From Octopus vulgaris (taxonomy: Eukaryota): a stretch of 64,000 nucleotides of DNA. Positions 15,256 to 59,095 of this stretch are shown here, piece by piece; position 1 is the first letter of the stretch, and every line of letters starts with the position of its first letter. The notes beneath the pieces are model-generated. The model had not been told where the DNA came from. It ran no database searches and saw nothing but the letters and a program-made list of their open reading frames with translations. The stretch is from the NCBI GenBank assembly GCA_951406725.2, contig OX597815.1, positions 69,378,001-69,442,000 of the forward strand. Direction: 5' to 3'. Both the position numbers and the translations under genes were made by a program.

Positions 15256-16443
15256 CTATCCGTTTTCTTTAGGGGACCAAAAACGTAACAGAAATTTAGT
15301 CACATGTGGGCATGATCCGAAAAGCTCTGTCCTTCTATTTAGACATGTGGTAGGGTCTAAGCTGCTTTTCCAGATAAGCCATCTCTCCATGTCGCATAAA
15401 CCGCACCTTCCGCTGCCGTTAGTATAGGGCTTACATCTGGCCAAAATCTTCCATTGTATGTTATAATCGACACCTTTATCTCTTAAAGACCAAATATGAT
15501 TGGATAATTGTGTCGCTTTTCTTTTGTTCCAGTACCTAAAGCTCAAAGTGTGGTTATTGAACCTGGCCTTGAAATTACCCTCTGTCAGGCCCACGTATTT
15601 CTTCGTCGAAACGGTGTCTTTAGTGGTTATAGAGTTTACGGTAGCTTCATATATGATGGTCTTGGACATGCAAGCTCCATTTAGCGGGCACAATTCTTTA
15701 TTCCTGCATGAACAGCTGTTTTCTTCTTGTGTTCTTTGTATGTTATGATTGATTATGTTTTTAAAATTGGTAGTTGAACTAAAACTAATTTTTAAATTGT
15801 GTCTATTGAAGAGTTTCCTATAAGCATGGTTAACTGGAAAATGTCTATCTATCAGTGCTAGGAAATATTTACCTATATTGAAGGCCACCTCGGGTGAGTA
15901 AGGGGGCGTAAACAAGATGACCTTCCTATTTCTATTATTCCTTTTCCTTACTGTTGGGCTGGTGATAGGTGTATATTTTATTTTTTCGCTAAAACCACTA
16001 TCTTTTAAAGCTTTATTATAAACTGGGGCAACGCTATTGAAGATGTCCTCATTAGATGAGAGGCTAGAAATCCTCTTACTAATATTTTTAACTAAATTTT
16101 TGAATACTATAGGGGGATGGCATGAACCTACATTAATATAACTTAGTCTATCATTGGGCTTCCTATAAGGCTTATAAATATTACTATTAAGATCTAAGGA
16201 AACGTCTAAGAAATTGACAACCGTCAGGTTAGTGTCTATAGTTATACTAAGTCCGAAGTGTTTCATTAACTGGATAATATCCTTCCTAAAACGATCTTGT
16301 GCTGGTCCATTTGTATTAGCTGTTAAGGCGAGGGCATCATCTTTGTAGATGGCGAAATGTACGTTAGGGAATGTCTTACCGAAGGTATCTAGGAGAAAGA
16401 GTCCAATTAGATCACAGATGCCTGCCCCATCATAAGAACCCAT
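15256..16443 (-). CDS. PLE RT C-terminal half plus GIY-YIG endonuclease, uninterrupted frame
   Basis: MGSYDGAGICDLIG, YKDD, NFLDV, CxCx5Cx5C linker (CSCRNKELCPLNGAC), IIY...YVG, CGLC...LNRRTELFGSCPH; the first ~25 aa of the tracked ORF come from the fold-back. Confidence 0.85.
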   Translation of the reverse strand: MGSYDGAGICDLIGLFLLDTFGKTFPNVHFAIYKDDALALTANTNGPAQDRFRKDIIQLMKHFGLSITIDTNLTVVNFLDVSLDLNSNIYKPYRKPNDRLSYINVGSCHPPIVFKNLVKNISKRISSLSSNEDIFNSVAPVYNKALKDSGFSEKIKYTPITSPTVRKRNNRNRKVILFTPPYSPEVAFNIGKYFLALIDRHFPVNHAYRKLFNRHNLKISFSSTTNFKNIINHNIQRTQEENSCSCRNKELCPLNGACMSKTIIYEATVNSITTKDTVSTKKYVGLTEGNFKARFNNHTLSFRYWNKRKATQLSNHIWSLRDKGVDYNIQWKILARCKPYTNGSGRCGLCDMERWLIWKSSLDPTTCLNRRTELFGSCPHVTKFLLRFWSPKENG

Positions 16444-16901
16444 ATGATGGGGCAGGCATCTGTGATCTAATTGGACTCTTTCTCCTAGATATATAAACAT
16501 TCTCCTATATATAAACATTCTCCTAGATATATAAACATTATTATTTCTAAATATCTCATATATTTAGTGTCAAATGATGACAGCATTTAATACAAATGGA
16601 TATTGCGGTGAGTTAACAGAACCATGAGAGCGTCGGAAAATTTGCCTTGCAGCATTTGTTCGCTTCTGGTGATTCTGAGAAAAAGAGATGAACTCAGTAC
16701 CGTTCATTCGTTTTCAACTAAAGTACGGATTCTTTGTTTTCGAAAAGTGTTTCTCCTTGTCATCGTCGCTGTCATCAAAGCACCAATAGGTGCCGAGTAC
16801 ATTGTTACAGCAACAGATAATAATCAAGCGAGCACTATGAAACATACTTTCCCTTTCTTTCTTTCTTTCTTTCTTTCTCCTTCGCTCTAACTCAGACACA
16901 C

Positions 16902-26005: not shown

Positions 26006-26700
26006 GAGAAAAAATAAAATATAATAATAATAATAATAATCGCTCAAAAAACTAGAATATCTACAATTCCTTGTGAGTATTTTAAATTGCCTTGAAAAGA
26101 AGTTGAAAATCTTGCATATCCACAATTTTCTCTGGCCGAACACACAAACGATCAGCTTTTAAAATTTTTGAAACTTTAATACCAACAACTTTCTGTGAAT
26201 ACTTGCCCTTTCCTGAGTATTCGAAAATGTAAACGCTCCTTTTAGCACAAGAACACTACAGTTCCCTCTGGCCGAACACACAAGTGGCAAGTGTCTTCTA
26301 CTATAGCCTCGGGCCGACCAAAACCTTGTGAGTGGATTTAGTAGACGGAAACTGAAAATTTTAAAAAATCTTTAACTACAATTCTCAGTAAAACTTTTGC
26401 TCTTCTTTTCTCCGTGACTACTTGAATATGTAAACGTACCTTTTATTACAACAACATTATTAAACGCACCTTTCATTCCAACAACACTATTAAACGCATG
26501 ACAAAAATTTCCTCCAAAATAAGTTGAAAATCTTACATATCCACAATTTTCTCAGGCCGAACACATTTTAAAAACTTTGAAACTTTAGGAGATAAACAAC
26601 TGCCAATATATACAAACTGCACAATAACGAAAAGTAAACCACGACAAAACCTATACAAAGGCACGAAAAATTCAACGATGTAAATAATATATATATTATA

Positions 26701-27311
26701 TCTCTGAGCGAGGTATAAACAGTAGCTGCACGACATCGTGAAGTATATTTGCCACTTAAATGTGGCTAACCCTTAAGGTTGGATGCTGCTATAGCTTGTA
26801 GCCCCAGGAGGACACCTCCTCCAGCTGGCTATTGACACACTTTCTGTGCCCTATCAGTATTTGCAAAGGGAAGCCATCCTTCCCATCATCAACCTGTATG
26901 ATACACACGGACTCGAGTTTCTTGGTATTGATCCGTCATCATATACTTCACGATGTCGTGCAGCTACTGTTTATACCTCGCTTAGAGATTTATTTTTGCT
27001 TGTTTACATATTTTCCATATCAGTGACTTTTCGTCACTGGAAAAAGGATATATATTTGAAAAGGGAGGCCTACATTTCATTGACAACCGGTGATTGTCAC
27101 GCGCTGATGACGGGTCAATATCTAGAAACTCGAGTCCGTGTGTATCATAAAGGTTGAAGATGGGAAAGATGGCTTCCCTTTGCAAATACTGATAGGGCAC
27201 AGAAAGTGTGTCAATAGCCAGCTGGAGGAGGTGTCTTTCTGGTACTACAAGCTACAGTAACATCCACCCCTATGGGTTAGTTACATTTAAGAAGCAAATA
27301 TACTTCACGAT
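26701..27311. mobile_element. HHR-bearing non-coding element: inverted partial arm plus a ~358-nt unit with terminal redundancy, in TA-rich flanks
   Basis: 26736-26940 is inverted to 27106-27311; 26701-26749 is inverted to 26941-26988; atatacttcacgat occurs at both 26941 and 27298. Confidence 0.8.
27098..27142 (+). ncRNA. Minimal type-I hammerhead ribozyme
   Basis: cacgcg-CTGATGA-c gggt caat atct a-GAAAC-tcga-GTC-cgtgtg; intact core, palindromic stem III, GUC site. Confidence 0.75.
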
Positions 27312-29189: not shown

Positions 29190-30980
29190 AACTAATAAAT
29201 CCAACAAACTAGTAAGAATAATTGCTAAACATGACACTTACAAGAAAACAAAGGATATACAGATTGAAATCCTCAAACAAAAACTACAATTAATAAACAA
29301 ACGACTGGCAAGATACAGAAAAAAAACAAAAAAAAAACGCTCAGCGTTCCATAGAAAAAACATACTATTCAAGGAGAGCATAAAAAAATTGTACAGGGAA
29401 CTGCGGAAAAATAACCTTATTGGGAAAACACCTCCTCCCCAGCTGCAAACTGAAGATTTTTGGAAAAACATTTGAAGTAATCCAAAGGAGTTTAGTCAGA
29501 ACGCATATTGGGTCAGGGACATAGGAGAGGCCAATGCCCACCTCAAATATCAAGAATGACAGGATATGACAACTGAAGAAGTGAAAGCAGCGCGCGTCAA
29601 GTCAAAGAAATGGAAATCACCAGGTATAGATAAGATAACACAGTTTTGGCTAAACTCTTTAATGAGCACAAACCACAACTTAGTCGTAGCACTCAATGAA
29701 GTCATGTCAAACCCTGCGAAAGCCCCAAAATGGCTTACGGAAGGGATTACATATCTCTTACCAAAAACAGAAGACACTACTAACCCACCAAAATACCGAC
29801 CCATAACATGCCTCACTACCATATATAAACTATTAACATCTATGATCGTGAATAGAGCATATGAATCCTCGGACAATAGGAAGCTATTCCCAGTGGAACA
29901 AAAGAGATGTAAAATGAGTTCATATGGATGTAAGGACCAATTACTGATTGATAAAATGAACATTGAAAATTGCAAATCTAAACGCAGAAACCTTAGCACT
30001 GCTTGGATAGATTACAAGAAGGCTTTAGACAATGCCCGACCCCCACCATGCATGTATCACCAAGGCCCTGGAAATTTACAAGATAGCTCCAACAATAGTG
30101 AACTTTTTAAAAGTAATCATGAATTCGTGGAGAACAACCCTCATTTTAAACCATATATAAGAATATACCACCTCACCAGACATCAATGTCGCCTGTGGTT
30201 ACTTTCAAGGTGACTCATTATCACCATTACTATTCTGCCTCACTCTGTTCCCTTTATCCACGTAACTGAATAATGCTAAGAGAGGGTATAAAATCTTTGA
30301 CCAGAAAATTAATCATCTACTCTATATGGATGATCTAAAACTGTTTGCCAAAAGCGACAAATAATTAGAAGAGCTCCTGAATATTGTCAAAGAATTTAGC
30401 TCTGATATAGGTATGGAATTAGGACTTGATAAGTGTGTAAAGGCTATTTTCAAGGCAGGGAAGTTCATAAAGGCAGAAAACATAGAACTTGATACTACCA
30501 CAGCTATTCGAAACCTAGACCAATCCGAAGTATACAAATATCTGGGAACCAATGAAAGTGATGGTAACCAGCACTCTAAAATGAAAGAGAAAATCCGCAA
30601 GGGATGCTATACCGAAGAGTAAGAATGGTCCCAAACTCAGAATTAAATGCTGCTAACAGAATTTATGCGATCAATTCTTTGGCCATATCAGTAATCACAT
30701 ATAGCTTCGGTATCATCAAGTGGAGTCTCACTGACATGCAGAATATAGATGGAAAGATCCGTAAAATCTTTACAAGGTACCGAACGCACTATTCAAAATC
30801 AGATGTAGATAGGATTTATCTCACAAGAAAAATAGGTGGAATCTCGAACAATCTTTCAAATCAGCAATAATAGATCTTGAAATGTACCTTAATACAACAA
30901 GCGATGCTGCACCGAAGCATGAAGATTCCAAGCATGCTTCAGTCATGAAGCTTAGTCAGAAATTTAAAAAGTCTCTTGGC
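29190..30980 (+). mobile_element. R4/Dong-like non-LTR retrotransposon, RT pseudogene
   Basis: WKSPGID, YRPITCL, GCKDQLLID, AWIDYKKA, FQGDSLSP, LYMDDLKL, YKYLG; frameshifted. Confidence 0.85.
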
Positions 30981-32585
30981 CTACAAGTTAACGAAGTATA
31001 GAGAAGGGCAGAGAGAGCAGGAGATGCAGTAGATGATATTAGTAGAAGTGCAGGTGAAGGAGTCGGTGATGTGATAGGGTCGATGATGGGTGCCGGTGGG
31101 GAGGGTGGTGTTGAAGAAGTAAAGGTAAGTGCAGCAGCGTGGGCGGGAGCAGGGGAATGAGCAGGGTTGGGAGGTTGGATTAGGGAAGAAGCTGTGGACC
31201 AAGAGGTCTCGTAGGTTGTAGGCTCGTTTGAAGGAGGGGAGTGGTCGGACTGGAGTCGCCGGAAGGCTCGGAGAATGGTGCGATGGAGAGGTAGGGTGGT
31301 GGGTTGGTAGGTGAGGGGAAATAGGAGGCGGGAGACGGCGGTGCGGGTTCGGGGGAGAGAGCAGATGCACGGCCGGTGTGGATAGTGGTGAGGGGATATC
31401 CACGTAGGATGAAGTGGCGAGCCATGAGTTGAGACTGAGTCTTAGTCATGGTCGTCACTACAGAGCCTGCGTAGACGAAGGAATTGGGAATAGGGGATGA
31501 AAAGCTTGGTGTGTTTAGGGTGGGAGGAAGAGAAGTTGAGGTATGAGTGTGAGTTTGTTTGTTTGTAGTGGATGGAGGTGGTGAGAGTGGAGTGATGAAT
31601 GCTGACCGAAATGTCAAGAAAGGAGACAGAGGTGTCTCCTTTCTAGTACAGGAGAAGTAGAGGGCAGGATGGAAAGATTTGACAAAAGAGAGGAAGGTAT
31701 CTAGATGTTCGCCTGAGAGTGAGGTGGCACCGATACAGTCGTCAATATAACGGCCGTATAGTTCGGGAGTGGGACCAGTGAAACTTGAGAATATTTGAGC
31801 CTCAACGTAGCCAACGAACAGGTTCGCATAGTTGGGGCCCATTCTCGTTCCCATGGCCACTCCCAAGAACAGCTGGTAGAAATCACCCGCGAGCGAGAAG
31901 CAGTTGAGTGAGAGGACAAGTTCAACCAGACGAACGAGTGTGGATGTGTCAGGTTGGAGGTTGGGTCGAAGGTCAAGGAAATGTTGGTGTGCATACAGCC
32001 CCTCGTGGTGAGGGATCACCGTGTAGAGGCTCTCGATGCCGAGGGTGAAGAAAAGTTTAGAGGAGCCAGGAGGGAAGGAGAAAGAGTTGAACAAACGAAG
32101 CGCGTGGTTGGTGTCATGGATGTGAGAGGGGAGGGAAGTCACTAGGGAGGCAAGGACACGGTCAAGATACCTGGAGATGAGTTCGGTGGGGCAGTTTCAG
32201 GCGGAGACGATGGGGAGGCCCGGGGTTGTTAGGCTTGTGGGTTTTGGGGAGGAAATAAATGGTGGGGTGCGAGGGGTGCGGACAATGAGGTTGGAGGCGA
32301 TGGGGAGGGGAAACGGGAGGAGGAGATGAGGTCATAGATAGTGGAGGACACAGTCTGTTGGTAGCTGTGCGTGGGGTCAGAGGGCAGAGGGCAGTTGAAG
32401 GGGGTTTCTTGAAGTTGGCGGAAAGCTTCGGCCTTGTAGAGGTCCGCGCGTTACACCACCACGGCTCCACCCTTGTCAGCCGGTTTTATAATGATGTCAG
32501 TACGGTGTCGGAGACATCGAAGGGCCGAGAGTTCGGCTGGGGAGATGTTTAGATGACGGGGACGCCTGGAAAAGTTAAACCAGTC
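30981..32585 (-). mobile_element. Penelope-like element remnant (Neptune-like), GC-rich
   Basis: [72 protein letters not shown]; truncated inside GIY-YIG. Confidence 0.85.
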
Positions 32586-47413: not shown

Positions 47414-48672
47414 TGGGTTGCCCGGAAAGTTCGTGCCAGTTTATAGTAGCCTTACCTTTCGACTTATTTTAGAACATGGTTGAGTCCATAAAATAGAATT
47501 TGACTACACCTCCATATAGAGCACAGTTTAAGCTATCTTTTCATGGAAGAAGGTTTATGTTCTTATAACCTGTGTTAATTCTGTGACCCTTTAAAATGGA
47601 AGATAAGAAGTTCATTTTCGGCACTTGATGCTTTTCTTTTTCAGTAAAGTAAAAAATGCCTCGCAAGCAACCAAAGAAATATGCGCAGTTTACGGTAATG
47701 TTTCTTTGTCCGAAAGAACTGTACGGAAGTGGTTCGCAAGGTTCCGAGCTGGTGATTGTAGCCTTATTGATAAAGAACGATCACGCAGACCATCCACTAC
47801 AGATGATGATCAAATCAAGTCATTAATTGAGAATAACCCACATTGCACAACCCGAGAATTGGCAGAAAGCCTCAACCTATCAAAATCCGTCGTTCATGAG
47901 CACCTGGTAAAGCTTGGGTACACAAATCGCTAAGATGTTTGGGTACCACACGAATTGAGTGAGAAGAACCTTTTTGATCGCATTTCCATCTGTGATTCGC
48001 TTTATAAACAGAATGAAAACGCGCCTTTTTTAAAGCAAATCACAGATGGAAATGTTCACAGAAAGCGATCCGGGAGTAAGCGACATGAGCCACCCTTAGC
48101 CACCCCATAAGGGGGTCTTCACCCTAAAAAGATCTTGCTTTGTGTCTGGTGGGATTGGAAAGGAATTCTGTACTATGAGCCTCTCCCAAGTAACCAGACA
48201 ATTAATTCTGAGAAATACTGCACACAACTGGACGAGTTAAAAGCAGCAATTCAAGAGAAACGTCCAGAATTGGCCAACAGGAAAGGTGTTGTTTTCCAAC
48301 ATGATAATGCAAGACCGCACGTTTCTTTGGGAACCAGACAAAATTTGCTGCAGCTTGGCTGGGATGTGTTACTCTACCCTACAAATTCACAAGATATTGC
48401 TCCTTCGGATTTCCACTTATTCAGGTCTCTGCAGAATAGTCTTAATGGTAAAAATTTCAATTCCTTGGATGACGTAAAAAGATACCTTGATGAATTATTT
48501 GCCATGAAACCACCTCAGTTCTGGGAAGAGGGTATTTTCAAGTTAAAGGAAAGATGGAAACACACTGTGCAACAAAATGGTTCATAGTTGGTTGATTAAA
48601 AATGTAATGGCAAGTATTTATTGACCTTTTTGTTTCCTTTAAAAATCGGCACGAACTTACCGGACAACCCAA
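47413..48672 (+). mobile_element. Full-length mariner element (mellifera-like TIRs), inactivated transposase
   Basis: TIRs ttgggttgcccggaaagttcgtgcc / ggcacgaacttaccggacaacccaa; TA flanks; HTH, WVPHEL, HDNARPH, DIAPSDFHLF; stop at 47931 and an internal deletion. Confidence 0.95.
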
Positions 48673-50491: not shown

Positions 50492-50799
50492 TGCATGCCT
50501 ATATATTAGTCAATACAAGAGATCCTCTGTACTTTGATATAAACTCTTTTTCAATCCAGTCTAGGTTCTTAAGTGGATACTTTTCTCTGATTCTTGTGAT
50601 CAAAGAAATGGCAACACAGGAAAACATGAGGTTCGTTGAAATTCCAGTTGTCTCCAAAATACAATGCAAGGCGTGCGTATTGCCAATCTGTTTATGTCAA
50701 CACACACACATATATATATATAAAACAAGTTATTTATAAATTACTGCTATGTATGTATGTAAATGTATATATATATATATATATATATATATGATCTAA

Positions 50800-50840
<41 letters not shown>

Positions 50841-51398
50841 TTATATATTTATATAAATGCATATATATATATATATATGTAGATATATACATACATACAT
50901 GCATGCATACATAGATACATACATACATACATACATACATACATACATACATGCATACATGCAAACATAGAGATCTAAATTCGTATGCTGTAAACAACAT
51001 ACTATAGTCGCTGTTAAGAAGTAAACTTCTAAAAAAGGATAGAAAAATTTCGAAGGGTTGCTTTGGTATAATGGTAATATGTCTCTCATGTTTACAGAAA
51101 ATAAGGAGTGGAGTTTAAGTGTCTCGCACATCCTTCGACTTTTCTCTCCAAAGGTGGTTTCTAAAAAATTGTTTATCCCCTGTTCCACTGGCTAATATTA
51201 ATGTTTGTTTTTAAGTCAAATTATAACTAAAAACAATTTAACAATAGGCCGAAGTACCACTCAAAAATTTTTCGTTTCTACAAGTAAAGCATCAACTCTG
51301 AGTCCCAAGTTTCGGTTTGGTTTCCTTGAGCAGATAGTCCAATGGGGGTGAGCATGCCGAAACTTCCAGGTCACTGTCAAATTTTTCCTTGCAAAAAT

Positions 51399-51467
<69 letters not shown>

Positions 51468-51494
51468 TACATACGTACATAAATACATACATAC

Positions 51495-51536
<42 letters not shown>

Positions 51537-51738
51537 GTATATGTATATGTATATATATATTTTTATATATATATATAGGCGGTAACTTTTTCTTGCCACT
51601 ATATCATGGCTGTTCTGTAAAGAACTATGTTACTACATTTTAACCCTAGGAAAACGTCTTTTCCAGCTGGTTAACGACACACTACCTGTGTCCAATATAT
51701 TGTAAGTGAGCGAATCACTCCCCTCCAACTTGGCAAAA

Positions 51739-51783
51739 CCAGTAGACCATGGTTTCTGGATCTTTACCCTTCATCGGCACAGG
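51739..51783 (-). ncRNA. Minimal type-I hammerhead, left arm (C at position 4)
   Basis: cctgtg-CCGATGA-a gggt aaag atcc a-GAAAC-catg-GTC-tactgg. Confidence 0.6.
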
Positions 51784-52173
51784 ACACCTGCCTGCTAGTG
51801 ATGGCATTCAATCGTCCCTACTCGCAATATATAAGCAGAAAAGCGGCAAACAGCCGTTGATCTCGTAACGAGCAAAATAGCTCTTCTAAAATCTCTAAAC
51901 GAGTTGCAGCAATACTAGACGGTAACGCTTTTTTCTTTTGTCACTATACCATGGCTGTTCTGTAAAGCACTATATTACTACATTTTAACCTCAAGAAAAC
52001 GTCTTTTCCAGCTGATTAACGACACACGACCTGCGCCCGATATATTTTGAGTAAGGCATCGAGATTTTAGAACCAGCTACTTTGCTCGTTACGAGACTAG
52101 CGGCTGTCTGGTGCCTCTATGTTTATATATTGTGAGTAGGGACGATTGAATGCCATCTCTAGCAAGCAAATGT

Positions 52174-52218
52174 CCAGTACTGATGAAGGGTAAAAATTCA
52201 GAAACCATGGTATACTGG
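52174..52218 (+). ncRNA. Minimal type-I hammerhead ribozyme, right arm
   Basis: ccagta-CTGATGA-agggtaaaaattca-GAAAC-catg-GTA-tactgg; perfect 6-bp stem I, palindromic stem III. Confidence 0.8.
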
Positions 52219-52443
52219 TCTTGCCAAGCTGGAGGGGAGTAATTTGCTCCTTTACACACAATATACCGGACACAGTTTGTGTGTCGTTAACCAGCTGGAA
52301 AAGACGTTTCCTGGGGTTAAAATGTAGTAATATAGTTCTTTACAAAACAGTCATGGTATAGTGGCAAGAAAAAGTTACCGTCTAGTATTGTTACTAATAT
52401 CTCGTTTAGAGATTTTAAAACTAGCTACTTTGATCGTATATAT

Positions 52444-52495
<52 letters not shown>

Positions 52496-52619
52496 TATTT
52501 ATATAAATAGATAGATAGAAACCGAGAGAGAAAGAAAGAGGGGGAGAGAGAGGGAGAAAGAGAGAAGACAGACAAACAGACAGACAGAGACAGAAACATA
52601 GACTGAGAAATAGTAAAAG

Positions 52620-53402
52620 GTAGAGCGTGTGCACTCTTAGAACGTAAAGCTCTGCATTGTCTTGCATGGATACAGGTCTGTCTTGGCTCGGTGTGATGCT
52701 TGATTATCGGGAGTCAACCATTCCTTCCTCTATTTTATATTAACGTAAAGACACCATTTTTCATCACCGGTGACGATGCTGTAAATAAATCTTTATCTCC
52801 ACAACAAACATGGTGTCGAGCAAGCAAACTTTTGGCGGTAGGGGAGCGCTGGAGTTTGTCACCTTCGTTCAGAGCTCGCGGTACTTATGCACCGAGATTT
52901 TGGACTTTATCCATCGTGTGAAGGGAACAGGTGACGATATTATAAAAGCATCCCATCTGCTGGGCGAATTGAGTAGTGAATTAGCGAAGACCTTTGTTGA
53001 GAAGGTTGTCCAATCGATCGTCATTGAACTGAGCAGGTCGGCCGAAACGCAGTGTCTGAGATCAAATTTCACGTTAATGCATGAAAACCATTTCTGTGAA
53101 GTGTTTTGAGTAATAGCCCCTTTTCTGTACACAGCACAAATATCTCGAGTGACTTTGGCAACTTTGGAAACTTGACTGAAAGCGTAGAGAAGCAGCTGTG
53201 GAAAATATTCATTTTTTTCTTCTTTGGCACTCTATTCGACATATATCTGAAAAGGAAAAATTTATTCAAAACTCAGAAACGATAAACAAAAGTTGTATGG
53301 GAAGAATAGAACTGTAATAACCATAAAAGACTACGATAAATAAATTTTTCGCGTTAATTCAAACAACACTGGAATGAAACGAGCGTATTTATCTGACAGC
53401 CC
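52620..53402 (-). mobile_element. Mariner remnant, 5' part
   Basis: IVTGDEKWCLYVN on the minus strand at ~52740-52778; TIR-like tagggctgtcagataaat. Confidence 0.7.
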
Positions 53403-54577
53403 TATAGATTAAACGTAGATCAACTTAGATTACATTGAGCTACATGTGCCACAGACCACTTCAGCTATCGGTACGTAGTATCATATAAGTGTTAAGGACT
53501 GGTAGAACTCATTTCTATCTAACCTACAAGATACCAAGCAAACTCAGACACAAAGTGTTAAACATGGTACCTCACGATTGTGGAGGGAACTTCTTAAACA
53601 GTCAGCCGTCCTGTATATCAGTAATCACATGTACAGATGCGATACAAGGGTTCCTGTGATACAAAAGTACCTGTGGTACAAGAATGCCTGTGATAACACG
53701 TACAAATGGTTCTAAGTTCCAGATTAGTTCGCCGCCACCTTAGTGGAGACATTCACACCTGTTGATCAACTAATCTCTGCAACAAAAACAGTGAATGACT
53801 TTCGTGTTCTGTTCTATAGAACAATTACAGGTCTATTGTATTTGCGGCAGATTGTTGTTTTTAAATGTATGTCCCACCAGTATTTCTAATATTTAAAGCT
53901 GTAGATGCCTTTAGATTCTGTTATAATTCCTGGTATGACTCTCAGGACAATCCCTCCTGCAGGCAACATTGTAAATAACAAGATTATGTGGTCATGTTTC
54001 AAACGAAGGTACTACTTTTCAGTTGTTGAGAAACTGGCGATGATGTAAGCGATATCTTCTACACTGCTATGGTAGAATCGATGTTTTTTGTCAGCAATTA
54101 TTATTGATTAGTAGCTATCACCTATTCCTGGATAGCAAAAACAAATGCTTCAAAGCAGGATGGGATGTAGAATCTAATCTAGGTGAAGGAGTGGTTGCCT
54201 TTATTATCAATATTGCAGGCAATGTATGCATGGCGTATTGTTCTAATGATATGCTGAATCTTTTTCTCACAGTCAACGATAAATGTTTCCAGTCGTTCGG
54301 GGTTTTTAAGTCAGGCAACCCCATTTTTTTTATTCTCGATCTAGCCTAGAGGTTTTGGGTGTGGAGTAATTGCAAAACTCTATGTTAATAGAATATATCT
54401 TTGTAGAGTGTCAGCAAATGATCGGGAAGGAAGTATTGTTTTGTTCAGAAGAAGAACACTAGTCTTTGAGATGCAAATTTTGTTTGTCATGCCAATGGAG
54501 ACTATTTGATTTTTTGACGGTTATAATATGTGTTGTATCACCAATTGTTATGATGATATTTTTTTACACTCTAACCG

Positions 54578-54934: not shown

Positions 54935-56795
54935 CTATTAAACCAATGAAAAAGATGGAAGAGATGTTAAGGGAGAAAGATGCATGAAGGGGAGTGATGG
55001 AAGGTTGAATTTTAATGAGAAGGACAGGGGGAGAGTTTGGAAGGAGCATTTGGAGGGAATTATGAACGAAGAGAATGAATGGGATCAGAGGGTGGAAGTT
55101 GCTGTGGTGAAGGAGCAAGTGGAGAGGGTTAGTCAGAAGGAAATAGTGGAGGCAATGAAGGAAATGAAAACAGGAAAGGCAGCTGGTCCATCAAAATGCA
55201 AGTGGAGAGATAGGGATTGCTGCGATGACGGAGCTCTGTCAGGGTGTGCTGCATGGAAGAGGAATGCCAGGATGATTGGGCACTGAGTGTGGTGGTACCG
55301 ATCTTCAAGGGGAAGGGGGTTGCGATGAGTGGCGTATAGGGGGGTGAAGTTATTGGAGCATGCAATGACGATAGTGGAAAGGGTGTTGGAGAGGAGAATT
55401 TGGAAAGGGGTGGATGTGGACGAAATGCAATTTTGTTTTATGCCAGGAAAAGGGACAATAGATGCAGTGTTCATTGTAAGGAGATTGCAAGAGGAATACC
55501 GAGATAAGGAGAAGGAGTTGTACATGTGCTTCGTTGATCTGGAGAAGGCATTTGATAGGGTTCCAAGGAAGGTGATTAAGTGGGCATTGAGGAAGATAGG
55601 TGCATTAGAGGTAATAGAGAGGGCAGTGATGAGTTTGTATGATGGGGTAAAGATAAGAGTTAGAATTGGATCAAAGCTGTCGGAGGAGTTTGCAGTGAAA
55701 GTTGGTGTGCATCAGGGATCTGTGTTGTCACCGTTGTTGTTTGCAATAGTGGTTGATATGGTGACGGAGAGTGCAAGAGAGGGACTGATAATGGAGATAC
55801 TGTATGCAGATGACCTTGTTCCGATGAGCGAGACGATGGAGGAATTGAGGGAGAAGCTTTAGAAATGGAAGGAGGCGTTTGAGAACAAAGGTTTGAAGAT
55901 AAACCTCGGGAAGACAAAGGTGATGGTAAGCGGGGTGGAAAAAGAAGTGTTAGAGAGTAAGGTGGATCCATGTGGTGTATGTGGGAGGAGGGTAATTGCA
56001 AATACAGTGTTGTGTACGAGATGTGAGAAATGGATTCATGTTAGATGTACGAAAATGAAGAAGGTGACCCCAAGACTGGCAAGAGAGTTTACCTGTGGAA
56101 GATGTGAGAAGGGAGCTGGAGGGCTGGCAGAACCACTGGAAACGCTACGTGACGAGGTGGAAACGGTGAGAGGGCTTTGTTATTTGGGAGATAGGGTGGA
56201 TATAAGTTGTGGATGTGAAGCATCTGTGACAGCAAGAGCAAGACTTGGCTGGGTGATGTTCAGGGAATGTGGAGCGTTGTTATATGGGAAAAGGTTCTCA
56301 TTGAAGATGAAAGAAAGGGTCTGTAGGAGTTGCGTGGGAGCTGCAATGCTGTATGGGAGTGAGACATGGTGTCTGATGGGGGGAGAGATGGCAATTTTGA
56401 GAAGAACCGAGAGAACAATGGTACGAGAAATACGTGGTGTGAAGCTGTTTGATAAGAGGAGGACTGAGGACTTGATGGGGATGATGGGGTTGGAGGAATC
56501 GGTGGAACAGCTGGCTAGGGCGAATGGAGTGCAGTGGTATGGGCATTTGTTGGAGAGGGATGAGGAGCATGTTCTGAGGAGGGTACTTGAGTTTTAGGTA
56601 AATGGACCGCGAAAGCGAGGTAGACCTAGGAAAACGTGGAGGGGACAGGTGGAGGAGGAGATTGGAAGAATTGACTTGAGAAGGAAGGACGCCCAAAACT
56701 GGGCAAGATGGTGACATGGTGTGAAGGCGGTTGCTATGGCATTGAGGTAGATCCGGCCACCCCCGTTTACGGGGACAAGACCCGGATTTAAAACA

Positions 56796-56839: not shown

Positions 56840-59095
56840 CAGTACCTTTTCCGCTTAGGAATTATTTCTAAATGTTTAGTCTGTTTCCGTTTTCTGTTAC
56901 TGCTCTTTCTAGGTTCAATCTCTTTCGGTGCTGGCGAATCGAACATATCGTAAAACATTTCCATTGGAACTTACTTCCTTTCTTCTGTGTGTCTGATTTT
57001 TAGTTGATTTAGGTGTCATTTATGCTCCCATCGCTGACCTTTAATTAAATTACATAATGTTTCCAATTCTTTTAGTCACTACACCATCCTGCCAACTCTC
57101 TTTACCGCCCTTGAATACTTTAAAATAGACTTTGTCTCCGACATCAAAATGTTTAGTTGAATTTTTTGTATTTTCTCTAAACGTTTTTTCCTTTGGCAAC
57201 AATTTGTCGAAAATCTATTTAGTCTTTCGTGCGAACATTAGCTCTGCAGGCGACTTGCCTCAACTGGTAATCGGATTGGGCGTTATTCTGTACACCCATA
57301 AAAATTTAGTTAGCGATTCATCATTTCCTAACTCGTTCCTTGCCTTTTTTAGCGCTCGCGAATCGTTCTGTTTGCCCATTTGACCTTGGGTGGTAGGGTG
57401 GAGTAAACGCGTTTGAACGTATGCATTTTGCAGGATTTCTTGAACTTGTATCCTGTAAATTATGTTCCATTGTCTGATACTATGGTGTCCGGAACACCGT
57501 ATCGAGCAAAAAGTTCGTGCAGGAACTTCATTGTTGCCTCCGAGGTAGGTTGACTGCACCTACATACTTCCGGCCACTTAGTAAAGCTATCAACAATGAT
57601 CAAGTAGTACGCGCCATTCACTGGTCCAGCGTAGTCTCTGTGTACCCTGGATCATGGACGATCCGTCTCAGGCCACGATTGGTATTTTACCGGTGGTGCC
57701 TTGGCTGCTAACGCAAAACCTCCACATAATTTCACCAAATTTTCAATGTCCTGGTCCATTGTCGGTCAATACACGTAACTCTTCGTGTGTACATTAATAC
57801 ATCATCGCAGAGTAAAAAATATGTCGCCTTCGTGTTCTACTTTTGTTTATTTTTGAAGGTTTCCTTCATTTTTATGATGTATTTGTCCTCCGCTGATTTA
57901 CTTTTTATATCTTGTACAGCCACTGGCAACTCCTGATTGACATTGCACATAACGTTTTTAATTTTCTTTTCTGATTGTAATGCAGCTATCGCCGTATCTT
58001 CGAGCGGTTCTGCATTCTTCGGAATTAGCCTAGATAAACAATCCGCATGGTCAATTTTCTTAGAAGGAATGCACTCCATCTTAAAGTTGTAATTTAACAA
58101 TATTGTACCCCAGCGTTGTAATCTGTTAACTGTATGGGTAAGAATTCCTGTCTTCGATCCGAAAATTGATAGTAACAGTCGGTGGTCCATCTGAAGCCGA
58201 AATTTTCTACAGTGGAGAAATCTGTGAAATTTCTTCACGGTAAAAATAATCGCTAGAGTTTCTTTCTCTATCTGAGTGTATTTTTTTTCTGCTGCAATCA
58301 GAGCACTTGAGGCATGAACCACCGCCTTCATATTACCGTCTTTATATTTGTATAGCAAAACTGATTCTACACCATATTCAGAAGCGTTAGAAGCTACAAT
58401 CTCTGCTGCAGGATCGAAATGAGCCAGTGACAAATCCGAAATTAATATTTTTTAATTATCTTGAAACGCCTTTCATCAATTCTATTTGGCGTCTTTCTTT
58501 AGCAAATTAAGTGGAGCTCTCAATTCATACATGTTTGGTATGTAATTTTGATAATAGCTCGCTAGGCTAAGAAAAGCTTGTAATATCACTAATTGCGTCT
58601 GCCCTCGACGGGCCAGGTCGTCTTCCATTTTTATCTACAATTTGTCCTAGATATTTAATTTTTGGCAAAAAAAATTCACGTTTCTCTTCACTGGGTGTGA
58701 AACCGTAATCTCTTAGTTTTTGAAAATCACATTTGACATGTTCAATATGCTGATCACGAGATTCACTTTTAATACATCATCGAAGTATGGAATTGCAAGT
58801 TGACAGTCCATCAACATCGCATCCATAACCTGTTGAAATATTCTTTTCTACTCTAGGCACAAGGCCCGACATTTTGGGGGAGGGGACCAGTCGATTAGCT
58901 CGACCCCAGTACGCAACTGGTACTTACTTTATCAACCCAGAAAGGATGAAAAGCAAAGTCGACTTCGGCAGAATTTGAACTCAGAACATAAAGACAGAAC
59001 TGTTGAAATATTTCAGGTGCGACCTTCAGACCAAATGGCAATCTATTATATTTATATAGTCCTCTGTGTGTATTCACTCTTAGAAGCTTCGGATA
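56840..59095 (-). mobile_element. Ty3/Gypsy pol remnant (RT, RNase H, integrase)
   Basis: NTHRGLYKYNRLPFGLKVAPEIFQ, PYFDD, NASEYG...IEKETLAIIF...RLQRW, YRITP. Confidence 0.85.
58843..58999 (-). mobile_element. 5'-truncated SINE family B inside the Gypsy RT, with 13-bp TSD
   Basis: ctgttgaaatatt at 58830 and 59000. Confidence 0.85.

What the first reader, a model, noticed from the sequence alone, without database searches (positions are those of the whole stretch)
51578..52436. Retrozyme-like element: divergent arms of circularly permuted ~340-nt units, each with a hammerhead ribozyme, in (TA)n
Seen: each arm is longer than one unit (about 1.4 and 1.1 units) and the two arms start at different phases. 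Both point outward into (TA)n tracts. Each has a minimal type-I HHR with palindromic stem III (AC-catg-GT), and there is no ORF. Known: metazoan non-LTR retrozymes and PLE pseudo-LTRs carry minimal HHRs that cleave as dimers and can yield circRNAs. Inference: the element was reverse-transcribed from a circular or multimeric RNA and primed on both target strands, probably by a PLE RT in trans. I know of no description of this family in cephalopods, but could not search.
Basis: partly seen in the sequence, partly recalled or inferred. Interest (0 to 1): 0.85.

Follow-up and report, generated by a model that had tools for sequence, protein, structure and literature searches.

The report
Penelope-mobilised hammerhead retrozyme, two start sites
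This is an old, decayed copy of a ~350-base non-coding repeat with a hammerhead ribozyme motif; its copies end at two fixed points, one per arm, the footprint of Penelope-type retrotransposons, which likely copied it, and a very young sister family in the same genome would let that be tested.

Summary
In detail: two head-to-head arms (1.40 and 1.08 units of a 351-nt monomer), each with a type I hammerhead motif, no ORF, (TA)n on both sides. It is one copy of a dispersed family (94 loci examined, 83-94% identical to consensus for most long segments, so old).

Two corrections. The hammerhead is canonical, not minimal. The phases are not random: 104 of 131 arm 3' ends fall at two fixed sites 45-60 nt apart, and inverted copies use one of each (23 A+B, 1 A+A, 0 B+B). 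That is the published PLE 'tail' and inverted-pLTR footprint; young autonomous PLEs in this genome show it too. The ribozyme cut site is never an end point.

Two sister families (48-64% identical; one only 1-3% diverged) keep the same predicted fold and hammerhead through compensatory changes. No autonomous PLE sharing the sequence was found; self-cleavage and circles are untested.

Verdict: a retrozyme-like non-autonomous PLE parasite. The class is known; footprint evidence for the retrozyme-PLE link was not in the papers read.

The parts
51479..51577 (.). (TA)n-rich target tract, left flank
51576..52054 (-). Left (inverted) arm, 1.40 units; 3' end at site A (unit position 324); full unit 51576-51915 plus partial tandem unit 51916-52054
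   Evidence: 88.0% to consensus
51739..51783 (-). Type I hammerhead motif, left arm: core CCGAUGA...GAAA, A.A at the base of stem II, stem III AC-CAUG-GU, predicted cut after GUC at 51745; stem I damaged by mutation
52055..52060 (.). Head-to-head (5'-5') inversion junction
   Evidence: bridged by contigs
52061..52437 (+). Right arm, 1.08 units; 3' end at site B (unit position 29-31)
   Evidence: 91.1% to consensus
52174..52218 (+). Type I hammerhead motif, right arm: stem I CCAGUA/UACUGG, core CUGAUGA...GAAA, weakened stem II, predicted cut after GUA at 52212
52385..52437 (+). PLE-type 'tail': sequence between end sites A and B, terminal on this arm only
52437..52517 (.). (TA)n target tract, right flank
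26693..27311 (.). Copy of sister family 2 (356-nt monomer) with the same inverted layout; hammerhead core at 27104 (+)

Best explanation
The element is one decayed copy of a non-coding 351-nt retrozyme-like family whose copies end at two fixed sites and sit in (TA)n, and it was likely reverse-transcribed in trans by a Penelope-like (PLE) RT/GIY-YIG enzyme that would nick both target strands and start cDNA at site A on one strand and site B on the other. Shown: closed head-to-tail monomer with no ORF; two fixed 3' ends; one of each per inverted insertion; scattered 5' truncation; arms of one locus share variants; TA bias; 10-12-bp target duplications at a few non-TA sites; hammerhead and overall fold conserved by compensatory change across three families. 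Inferred: a PLE enzyme (Neptune-type is the best guess); two-strand priming on one RNA source; a template that is a circle or an uncut multimer rather than a ribozyme-cut linear monomer; ribozyme cleavage as a dimer. This copy is predicted to be dead.
For: Ends: in 94 unique loci, 50 of 131 arm 3' ends lie in window A (unit 296-327) and 54 in window B (13-33); the windows cover 15% of the unit. Of 40 inverted loci 23 are A+B, 1 A+A, 0 B+B (binomial p 1.5e-6); 16 have an end outside both windows. Family 2: 8 of 11 inverted loci A+B, none A+A or B+B (hand count). Family 3: 15 of 22 A+B, 1 B+B, 6 other (hand count). Autonomous PLEs in the same genome do the same: 6 of 6 inverted loci with both ends scored in one family (30 loci), and 6 of 6 visible in another. 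Published: the PLE tail is the stretch between two RT start sites, both strands are nicked and extended, AT-rich DNA is cut, and hammerhead mutants still insert (PMC11167929). An inverted 5'-truncated copy, a tail at one end, TA bias and 8-10-bp duplications are PLE features (PMC8557442; PMC3846280). TATATA follows 48 of 104 A/B ends against 8.8% background. Duplications of 12, 12, 12 and 10 bp at L338, L344, L007, L102. Inverted arms share 53% of derived variants in young family 3 against 8% between loci; 17% against 7% in family 1. Cut site: 3 of 131 5' ends (4.9 expected) and 0 of 131 3' ends lie within 6 nt; 75 of 104 arms cross it and 34 exceed one unit. Three-family fold: 23 compensatory pairs against 10.5 +/- 3.0 (max 17) in 40 column shuffles. 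Stem I pairs 6 of 6 in all three families with different letters; stem III stays self-complementary; family 3 swaps C3-G8 for U3-A8.
Against: No autonomous PLE with a pLTR similar to the unit was found: four young families were checked (30 loci each plus 12 longer stretches), so the partner is unidentified. The A and B windows were drawn after seeing the first 69 loci and are wide. All loci are top-scoring hits, not a random sample, and the family-3 query ended at B. Within family 1 the catalytic core is barely better kept than the rest (92% against 90%, with queries favouring it; 41 of 81 cores intact). An unpaired A.A or C.A at the base of stem II could lower activity. The antisense strand folds about as well as the sense strand (z -8.6 against -9.9), so folding energy does not fix the strand. 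Gene conversion could also make arms alike. The covariation test uses only three related consensus sequences.
Confidence: 0.8

Rival explanations
1. The family is PLE-mobilised, but the inverted arm arises by self-priming or fold-back (possibly on an antisense template) instead of priming on the second target strand.
For: Proposed for PLE head-to-head inversions in PMC3846280. Antisense folds are as stable. Many junctions overlap by a few bases.
Against: Fold-back alone does not explain why the outer ends are nearly always one A and one B. A PLE protein extends both target strands in vitro (PMC11167929).
Confidence: 0.1
2. The copies are pLTR remnants of an autonomous PLE that was not sampled.
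For: Xenopus retrozymes match PLE pLTRs (bioRxiv 10.64898/2026.07.22.740005). Only four young PLE families were checked.
Against: The unit joins head to tail with no ORF between in 34 of 104 arms. The 37 upstream flanks tested share no common sequence at the junction. Among 113 loci, PLE protein hits are scattered and only L116 is fused to a 5' end. The PLE pLTRs here carry other hammerhead variants.
Confidence: 0.06
3. A circular RNA was copied from arbitrary start points by some non-LTR RT with L1-style twin priming.
For: Arms exceed one unit and cross the cut site; 5' ends are spread evenly.
Against: 79% of 3' ends are at two sites; no poly(A) or other LINE-like tail follows them; the two-site rule matches local PLEs.
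Confidence: 0.04

Closest known systems
Metazoan non-LTR retrozymes (Cervera and de la Pena 2020, PMC7229834; mussel ~350-390 bp, axolotl 330/350 bp)
   Same: Non-coding 150-450-bp head-to-tail unit, GC under 50% (44%), canonical type I hammerhead with short palindromic helix III, strongly self-paired predicted circle; the axolotl Amex2 ribozyme also has a mismatch at the base of helix II; PLE mobilisation proposed.
   Different: Here dispersed partial tandems (longest arm 1.83 units in family 1, 2.45 in family 3) with frequent inversions, not dimer-to-62-mer arrays; two fixed 3' ends. The main text has 0 hits for 'inverted', 'octopus' and 'cephalopod'; its supplement could not be read. Cleavage and circles were shown there and are untested here.
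Vertebrate retrozymes as PLE derivatives (Li, Clavereau, Pollet 2026, bioRxiv 10.64898/2026.07.22.740005)
   Same: Same conclusion: retrozymes are non-autonomous PLE parasites.
   Different: Their evidence is co-occurrence and pLTR homology; no molluscs, 0 hits for 'tail'. Here the evidence is the insertion footprint and no pLTR homology was found. This locus fails their 'two consecutive hammerhead units' definition of an active retrozyme.
EN+ Penelope-like elements (Poseidon PAc, PMC11167929; Neptune, Hydra, Naiad and non-autonomous Chlamys/MRC1, PMC8557442; Adineta Penelope, PMC3846280)
   Same: Partial tandem, inverted 5'-truncated copy, tail at one end, AT/TA targets, target duplications of about 10 bp, hammerhead not marking the ends.
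   Different: No RT or GIY-YIG ORF; tail 43-58 nt against the 30-40 bp described; canonical rather than minimal hammerhead.

Membership tests
non-LTR retrozyme | canonical type I hammerhead motif in each unit | tested here: met
   definition from PMC4209133; Rfam models gave no hit
non-LTR retrozyme | 150-450-bp head-to-tail unit, GC under 50%, no ORF | tested here: met
   351 nt, 43.9% GC; no ORF of 110 aa or more
non-LTR retrozyme | at least two consecutive hammerhead-bearing units in direct tandem | tested here: not met
   one hammerhead per arm at this locus; 5 of 104 family-1 arms cross the cut site twice; arms of 2.21 and 2.45 units exist in family 3
non-LTR retrozyme | highly self-paired monomer RNA | tested here: met
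   consensus circle z -9.9, -7.6, -6.0 for families 1-3; this copy's right arm only z -1.8
non-LTR retrozyme | self-cleavage and accumulation of circular RNA | not testable with these tools
   only assembled contigs of runs guessed to be RNA were available
EN+ PLE (autonomous) | RT plus GIY-YIG ORF | tested here: not met
PLE-mobilised element | [quoted passage not shown] | tested here: met
PLE-mobilised element | partial tandem plus inverted 5'-truncated copy | tested here: met
   40 of 94 loci inverted; 34 of 104 arms longer than one unit
PLE-mobilised element | AT/microsatellite target and a target duplication of about 10 bp | tested here: met
   48 of 104 ends followed by TATATA against 8.8%; 10-12-bp duplications at 4 of 120 loci, most sites unreadable inside TA
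PLE-mobilised element | sequence shared with the pLTR of an autonomous partner | tested here: inconclusive
   none in four young PLE families; older families not sampled

The most novel reading that the evidence does not exclude
A viroid-sized (~355 nt) circular ribozyme RNA lineage has parasitised Neptune-type PLEs through at least three waves and is still mobile (family 3). A dimeric PLE RT engages one RNA molecule at two fixed structural sites, site A for one target strand and site B for the other, which would explain the PLE tail and inverted pLTR as a single twin-priming event and supply a minimal natural substrate for reconstituting it.
Probability: 0.3. Interest if true: 0.75.

Novelty: new variant of a known kind. 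Interest (0 to 1): 0.5.

Why it matters
Which enzyme mobilises animal retrozymes has been argued from co-occurrence and pLTR similarity; a 2020 review states that the repeats show no motif pointing to their partner (PMC7761336). Here a retrozyme-type family carries the PLE-specific two-start-site footprint, and the near-strict one-A, one-B pairing is a quantitative constraint on how PLEs make tails and inversions, which PMC8557442 lists as unresolved. A sister family with 99-100% identical copies lies in the same genome as young PLE families with long open reading frames, so the trans-mobilisation, the role of the ribozyme and the circle-or-multimer question can be tested directly. The window's own copy is an ordinary dead insertion.

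Tried and rejected
Rfam, E<=5, 50500-53500: only microsatellite-driven miRNA and similar hits, no hammerhead family.

Search for an autonomous partner: four young PLE families show no pLTR similarity to the family 1 or 2 unit at E<=0.05, apart from separately located family members. tblastn of PLE ORFs on 113 family 1 and 2 loci gave scattered neighbours. The 37 upstream flanks share nothing at the junction. A Pfam family search for a PLE domain could not be run because the accession was not in the library.

Cut site as an end point: rejected (family 3: 2 of 48 junction ends against 1.7 expected). Extra conservation of the core within family 1: not convincing. A tail for the first Neptune-like family: my first reading of 41 nt (notebook) was an alignment running into TA repeats; 12 of 12 long copies end at site A.

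Expression: no RNA holder was listed for the window element. Contigs from runs only guessed to be RNA cover family 1 sparsely. One such run covers all 30 bins of the family-3 unit, and two show the head-to-tail joint. Contigs cannot show strand, ends or level, and genomic tandems give the same joint, so none of this is used as evidence.

Earlier scan findings: none returned.

Literature searches for a cephalopod description and for retrozyme insertion footprints found none; the giant squid paper only counts 235 hammerhead loci. The library lacks most subscription papers, and Repbase and Dfam could not be checked.

Full report
OBSERVATION. The element at 51576-52437 is as described. Self-BLAST shows two inverted arms and internal direct repeats about 345 nt apart. 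The window lies in an unnamed 2.80-Gb assembly of 227 contigs, G000. The right arm gave 1188 first-look candidates, of which 40 were scored. A consensus from 28 loci is 351 nt and 43.9% GC. The left arm is 1.40 units on the minus strand (88.0% identity) and the right arm 1.08 units on the plus strand (91.1%). Both flanks are (TA)n, and no ORF of 110 aa or more lies inside. One contig in each of two public runs bridges the inversion junction.

THE RIBOZYME. The consensus has a 6-bp stem I that extends beyond an internal loop, the core CCGAUGA...GAAA, a 4-bp stem II on an unpaired A.A (A in 71 and C in 11 of 86 aligned copies), stem III AC-CAUG-GU and a GUC triplet. By the definitions in PMC4209133 (first quarter read) this is a canonical metazoan type I hammerhead, not the minimal PLE type. 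Co-folding two consensus copies pairs the palindromic stem III between molecules. Within the family the core decays nearly like the rest (92% against 90%; 41 of 81 cores intact). Of 109 segments longer than 150 nt, the mean identity to consensus is 87.3% and the best 93.9%, so the family is old. The window's left stem I and right stem II are damaged, and the right-arm unit folds only at z -1.8 against -9.9 for the consensus.

SISTER FAMILIES. A second family sits in the same window at 26693-27311 (3930 candidates; 356 nt). A third was found beside a PLE (2256 candidates, top copies 96-100% identical; 357 nt). Pairwise identities are 59%, 48% and 64%. Their joint circular fold has 82 pairs; 56 can form in all three and 23 are compensatory, against 10.5 +/- 3.0 (maximum 17) in 40 column shuffles. 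Three related consensus sequences make this a modest test. Stem I pairs fully in all three with different letters, stem III remains self-complementary (CAUG, UCGA, CUG loops), and family 3 replaces C3-G8 by U3-A8, a covariation also reported in PMC4209133. I infer that the ribozyme and the fold were under selection in the source copies.

ENDS. From six searches, 163 fetched loci reduced to 94 unique ones: 40 head-to-head inverted, 51 single-arm and 3 complex, the last left out of the end counts. Of 131 arm 3' ends, 50 fall in window A (unit 296-327, mode 324) and 54 in window B (13-33, modes 19 and 27-31). The windows cover 15% of the unit and were drawn. Inverted loci are 23 A+B, 1 A+A and 0 B+B (p 1.5e-6); 16 have an end elsewhere, several abutting other repeats. 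The window's element is A+B. Family 2 gives 8 A+B of 11 inverted loci, and family 3 gives 15 A+B, 1 B+B and 6 other of 22 (hand counts; the family-3 query ended at B). Sites A and B align to nearly the same columns in the three families. The 5' ends are scattered. The ribozyme cut site attracts 3 of 131 5' ends (4.9 expected) and no 3' ends; 75 of 104 A/B arms cross it, 34 exceed one unit and 5 cross it twice. TATATA follows 48 of 104 ends against 8.8% background. Duplications of 10-12 bp flank four non-TA insertions among 120 loci. Inverted arms of one locus share 53% of their derived variants in family 3 against 8% between loci, and 17% against 7% in family 1, as expected for one event from one source, though gene conversion could contribute.

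PARTNER. The genome holds at least four young autonomous PLE families. Two have a CX4CxxC linker, described for Neptune in PMC8557442; two I call Hydra-like from recalled motifs. No tree was built. One Hydra-like family shows two ends about 65 nt apart, with A+B in 6 of 6 inverted loci where both ends were scored. One Neptune-like family shows a tail of about 40 nt with A+B in 6 of 6 visible loci. None shares pLTR sequence with the units. Three of 26 family-3 loci and 1 of 20 family-2 loci abut Neptune-type sequence directly. With the 43-nt tail of family 3 this makes Neptune-type the best guess, but it is not shown.

MECHANISM. Shown steps: closed non-coding monomer, two fixed ends, one per arm, scattered 5' truncation, TA targets. 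From the literature: a PLE protein nicks and extends both strands of AT-rich DNA, starts reverse transcription at two internal sites whose interval is the genomic tail, and does not need hammerhead cleavage (PMC11167929, first half read). Inferred: a PLE enzyme binds the monomer's structure near A and B, primes one target strand at A and the other at B, and copies back through the cut site. The template therefore cannot be a plain cut monomer unless the enzyme jumps; a circle (as shown for mussel, coral and axolotl retrozymes in PMC7229834, parts 2-4 of 6 read) and an uncut multimer fit equally, and I put them near even.

COMPARISON AND NOVELTY. It works like a non-LTR retrozyme but fails the two-hammerhead tandem criterion at this locus, and it has the structural marks of a PLE without the ORF. 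The retrozyme-PLE link is already proposed (PMC7229834; bioRxiv 10.64898/2026.07.22.740005, parts 1-3 of 5 read), and the inverted-plus-tail layout is standard for PLEs (PMC8557442 passages; PMC3846280 passages). PMC7761336 and PMC6962438 were seen as passages only. Seven searches found no cephalopod retrozyme family and no end-footprint analysis of retrozymes. The supplement of PMC7229834 could not be read, one file of PMC4209133 was not searched, the preprint's supplements were not seen, and repeat databases were not available, so prior annotation of these families is possible.

VERDICT. Real, and less exotic than first read in its layout, which is the PLE norm. It is more informative than first read in its fixed A+B ends and its young sister family. 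New variant of a known kind; interest 0.5.

Noticed in passing
window 26693-27311: Copy of sister family 2 (356 nt, 59% identical to family 1 along its length, 3930 first-look candidates) with the same inverted A+B layout and a hammerhead at 27104.
   Followed up: yes
L316-L345 (e.g. G000:C11:29103443): Sister family 3: 357 nt, top copies 96-100% identical, 2256 candidates; U3-A8 core covariation and a U.U or G-C pair at the base of stem II; arms up to 2.45 units.
   Followed up: yes
window 15256-16563 (-): 5'-truncated copy of a very young autonomous PLE (Hydra-like by recalled motifs): 35,159 candidates, 717-aa open frames, 98% identical, two 3' ends about 65 nt apart in (TA)n, hammerhead-like motif with a long stem II in its pLTR; no Pfam hit at E<=0.01.
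   Followed up: partly
window 30956-32196 (-): Frameshifted Neptune-like PLE fragment lying next to a LINE RT fragment (29560-30213 +); young relatives have open frames up to 1214 aa.
   Followed up: partly
L259/L316 2130-2370, L331 1391-1463, L342 1270-1300: In 3 of 26 family-3 loci a short inverted arm ending at unit position 78-89 abuts Neptune-type 3' sequence (L316 and L331 by BLAST, L342 by eye). L116 has an old Neptune RT fragment fused to the 5' end of a family-2 copy. These may be template-switch chimeras or insertions into PLE ends.
   Followed up: partly
L163 1368-1500; L006 about 1040-1423: A repeat with a Helitron-like 3' hairpin and CTAG end (recalled hallmark) contains a 63-nt stretch 73% identical to the part of family 2 just before site A; possible capture.
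   Followed up: no
L267 2921-3083, L187, L189: Further diverged relatives (64-68% identity) and another hammerhead-like motif, suggesting more families.
   Followed up: no
window 52869-53231, 48111-48587, 55329-56597, 57837-58451: Mariner-type transposase fragments, an RT with a neighbouring PHD-finger ORF, and an RT-RNase H fragment.
   Followed up: no
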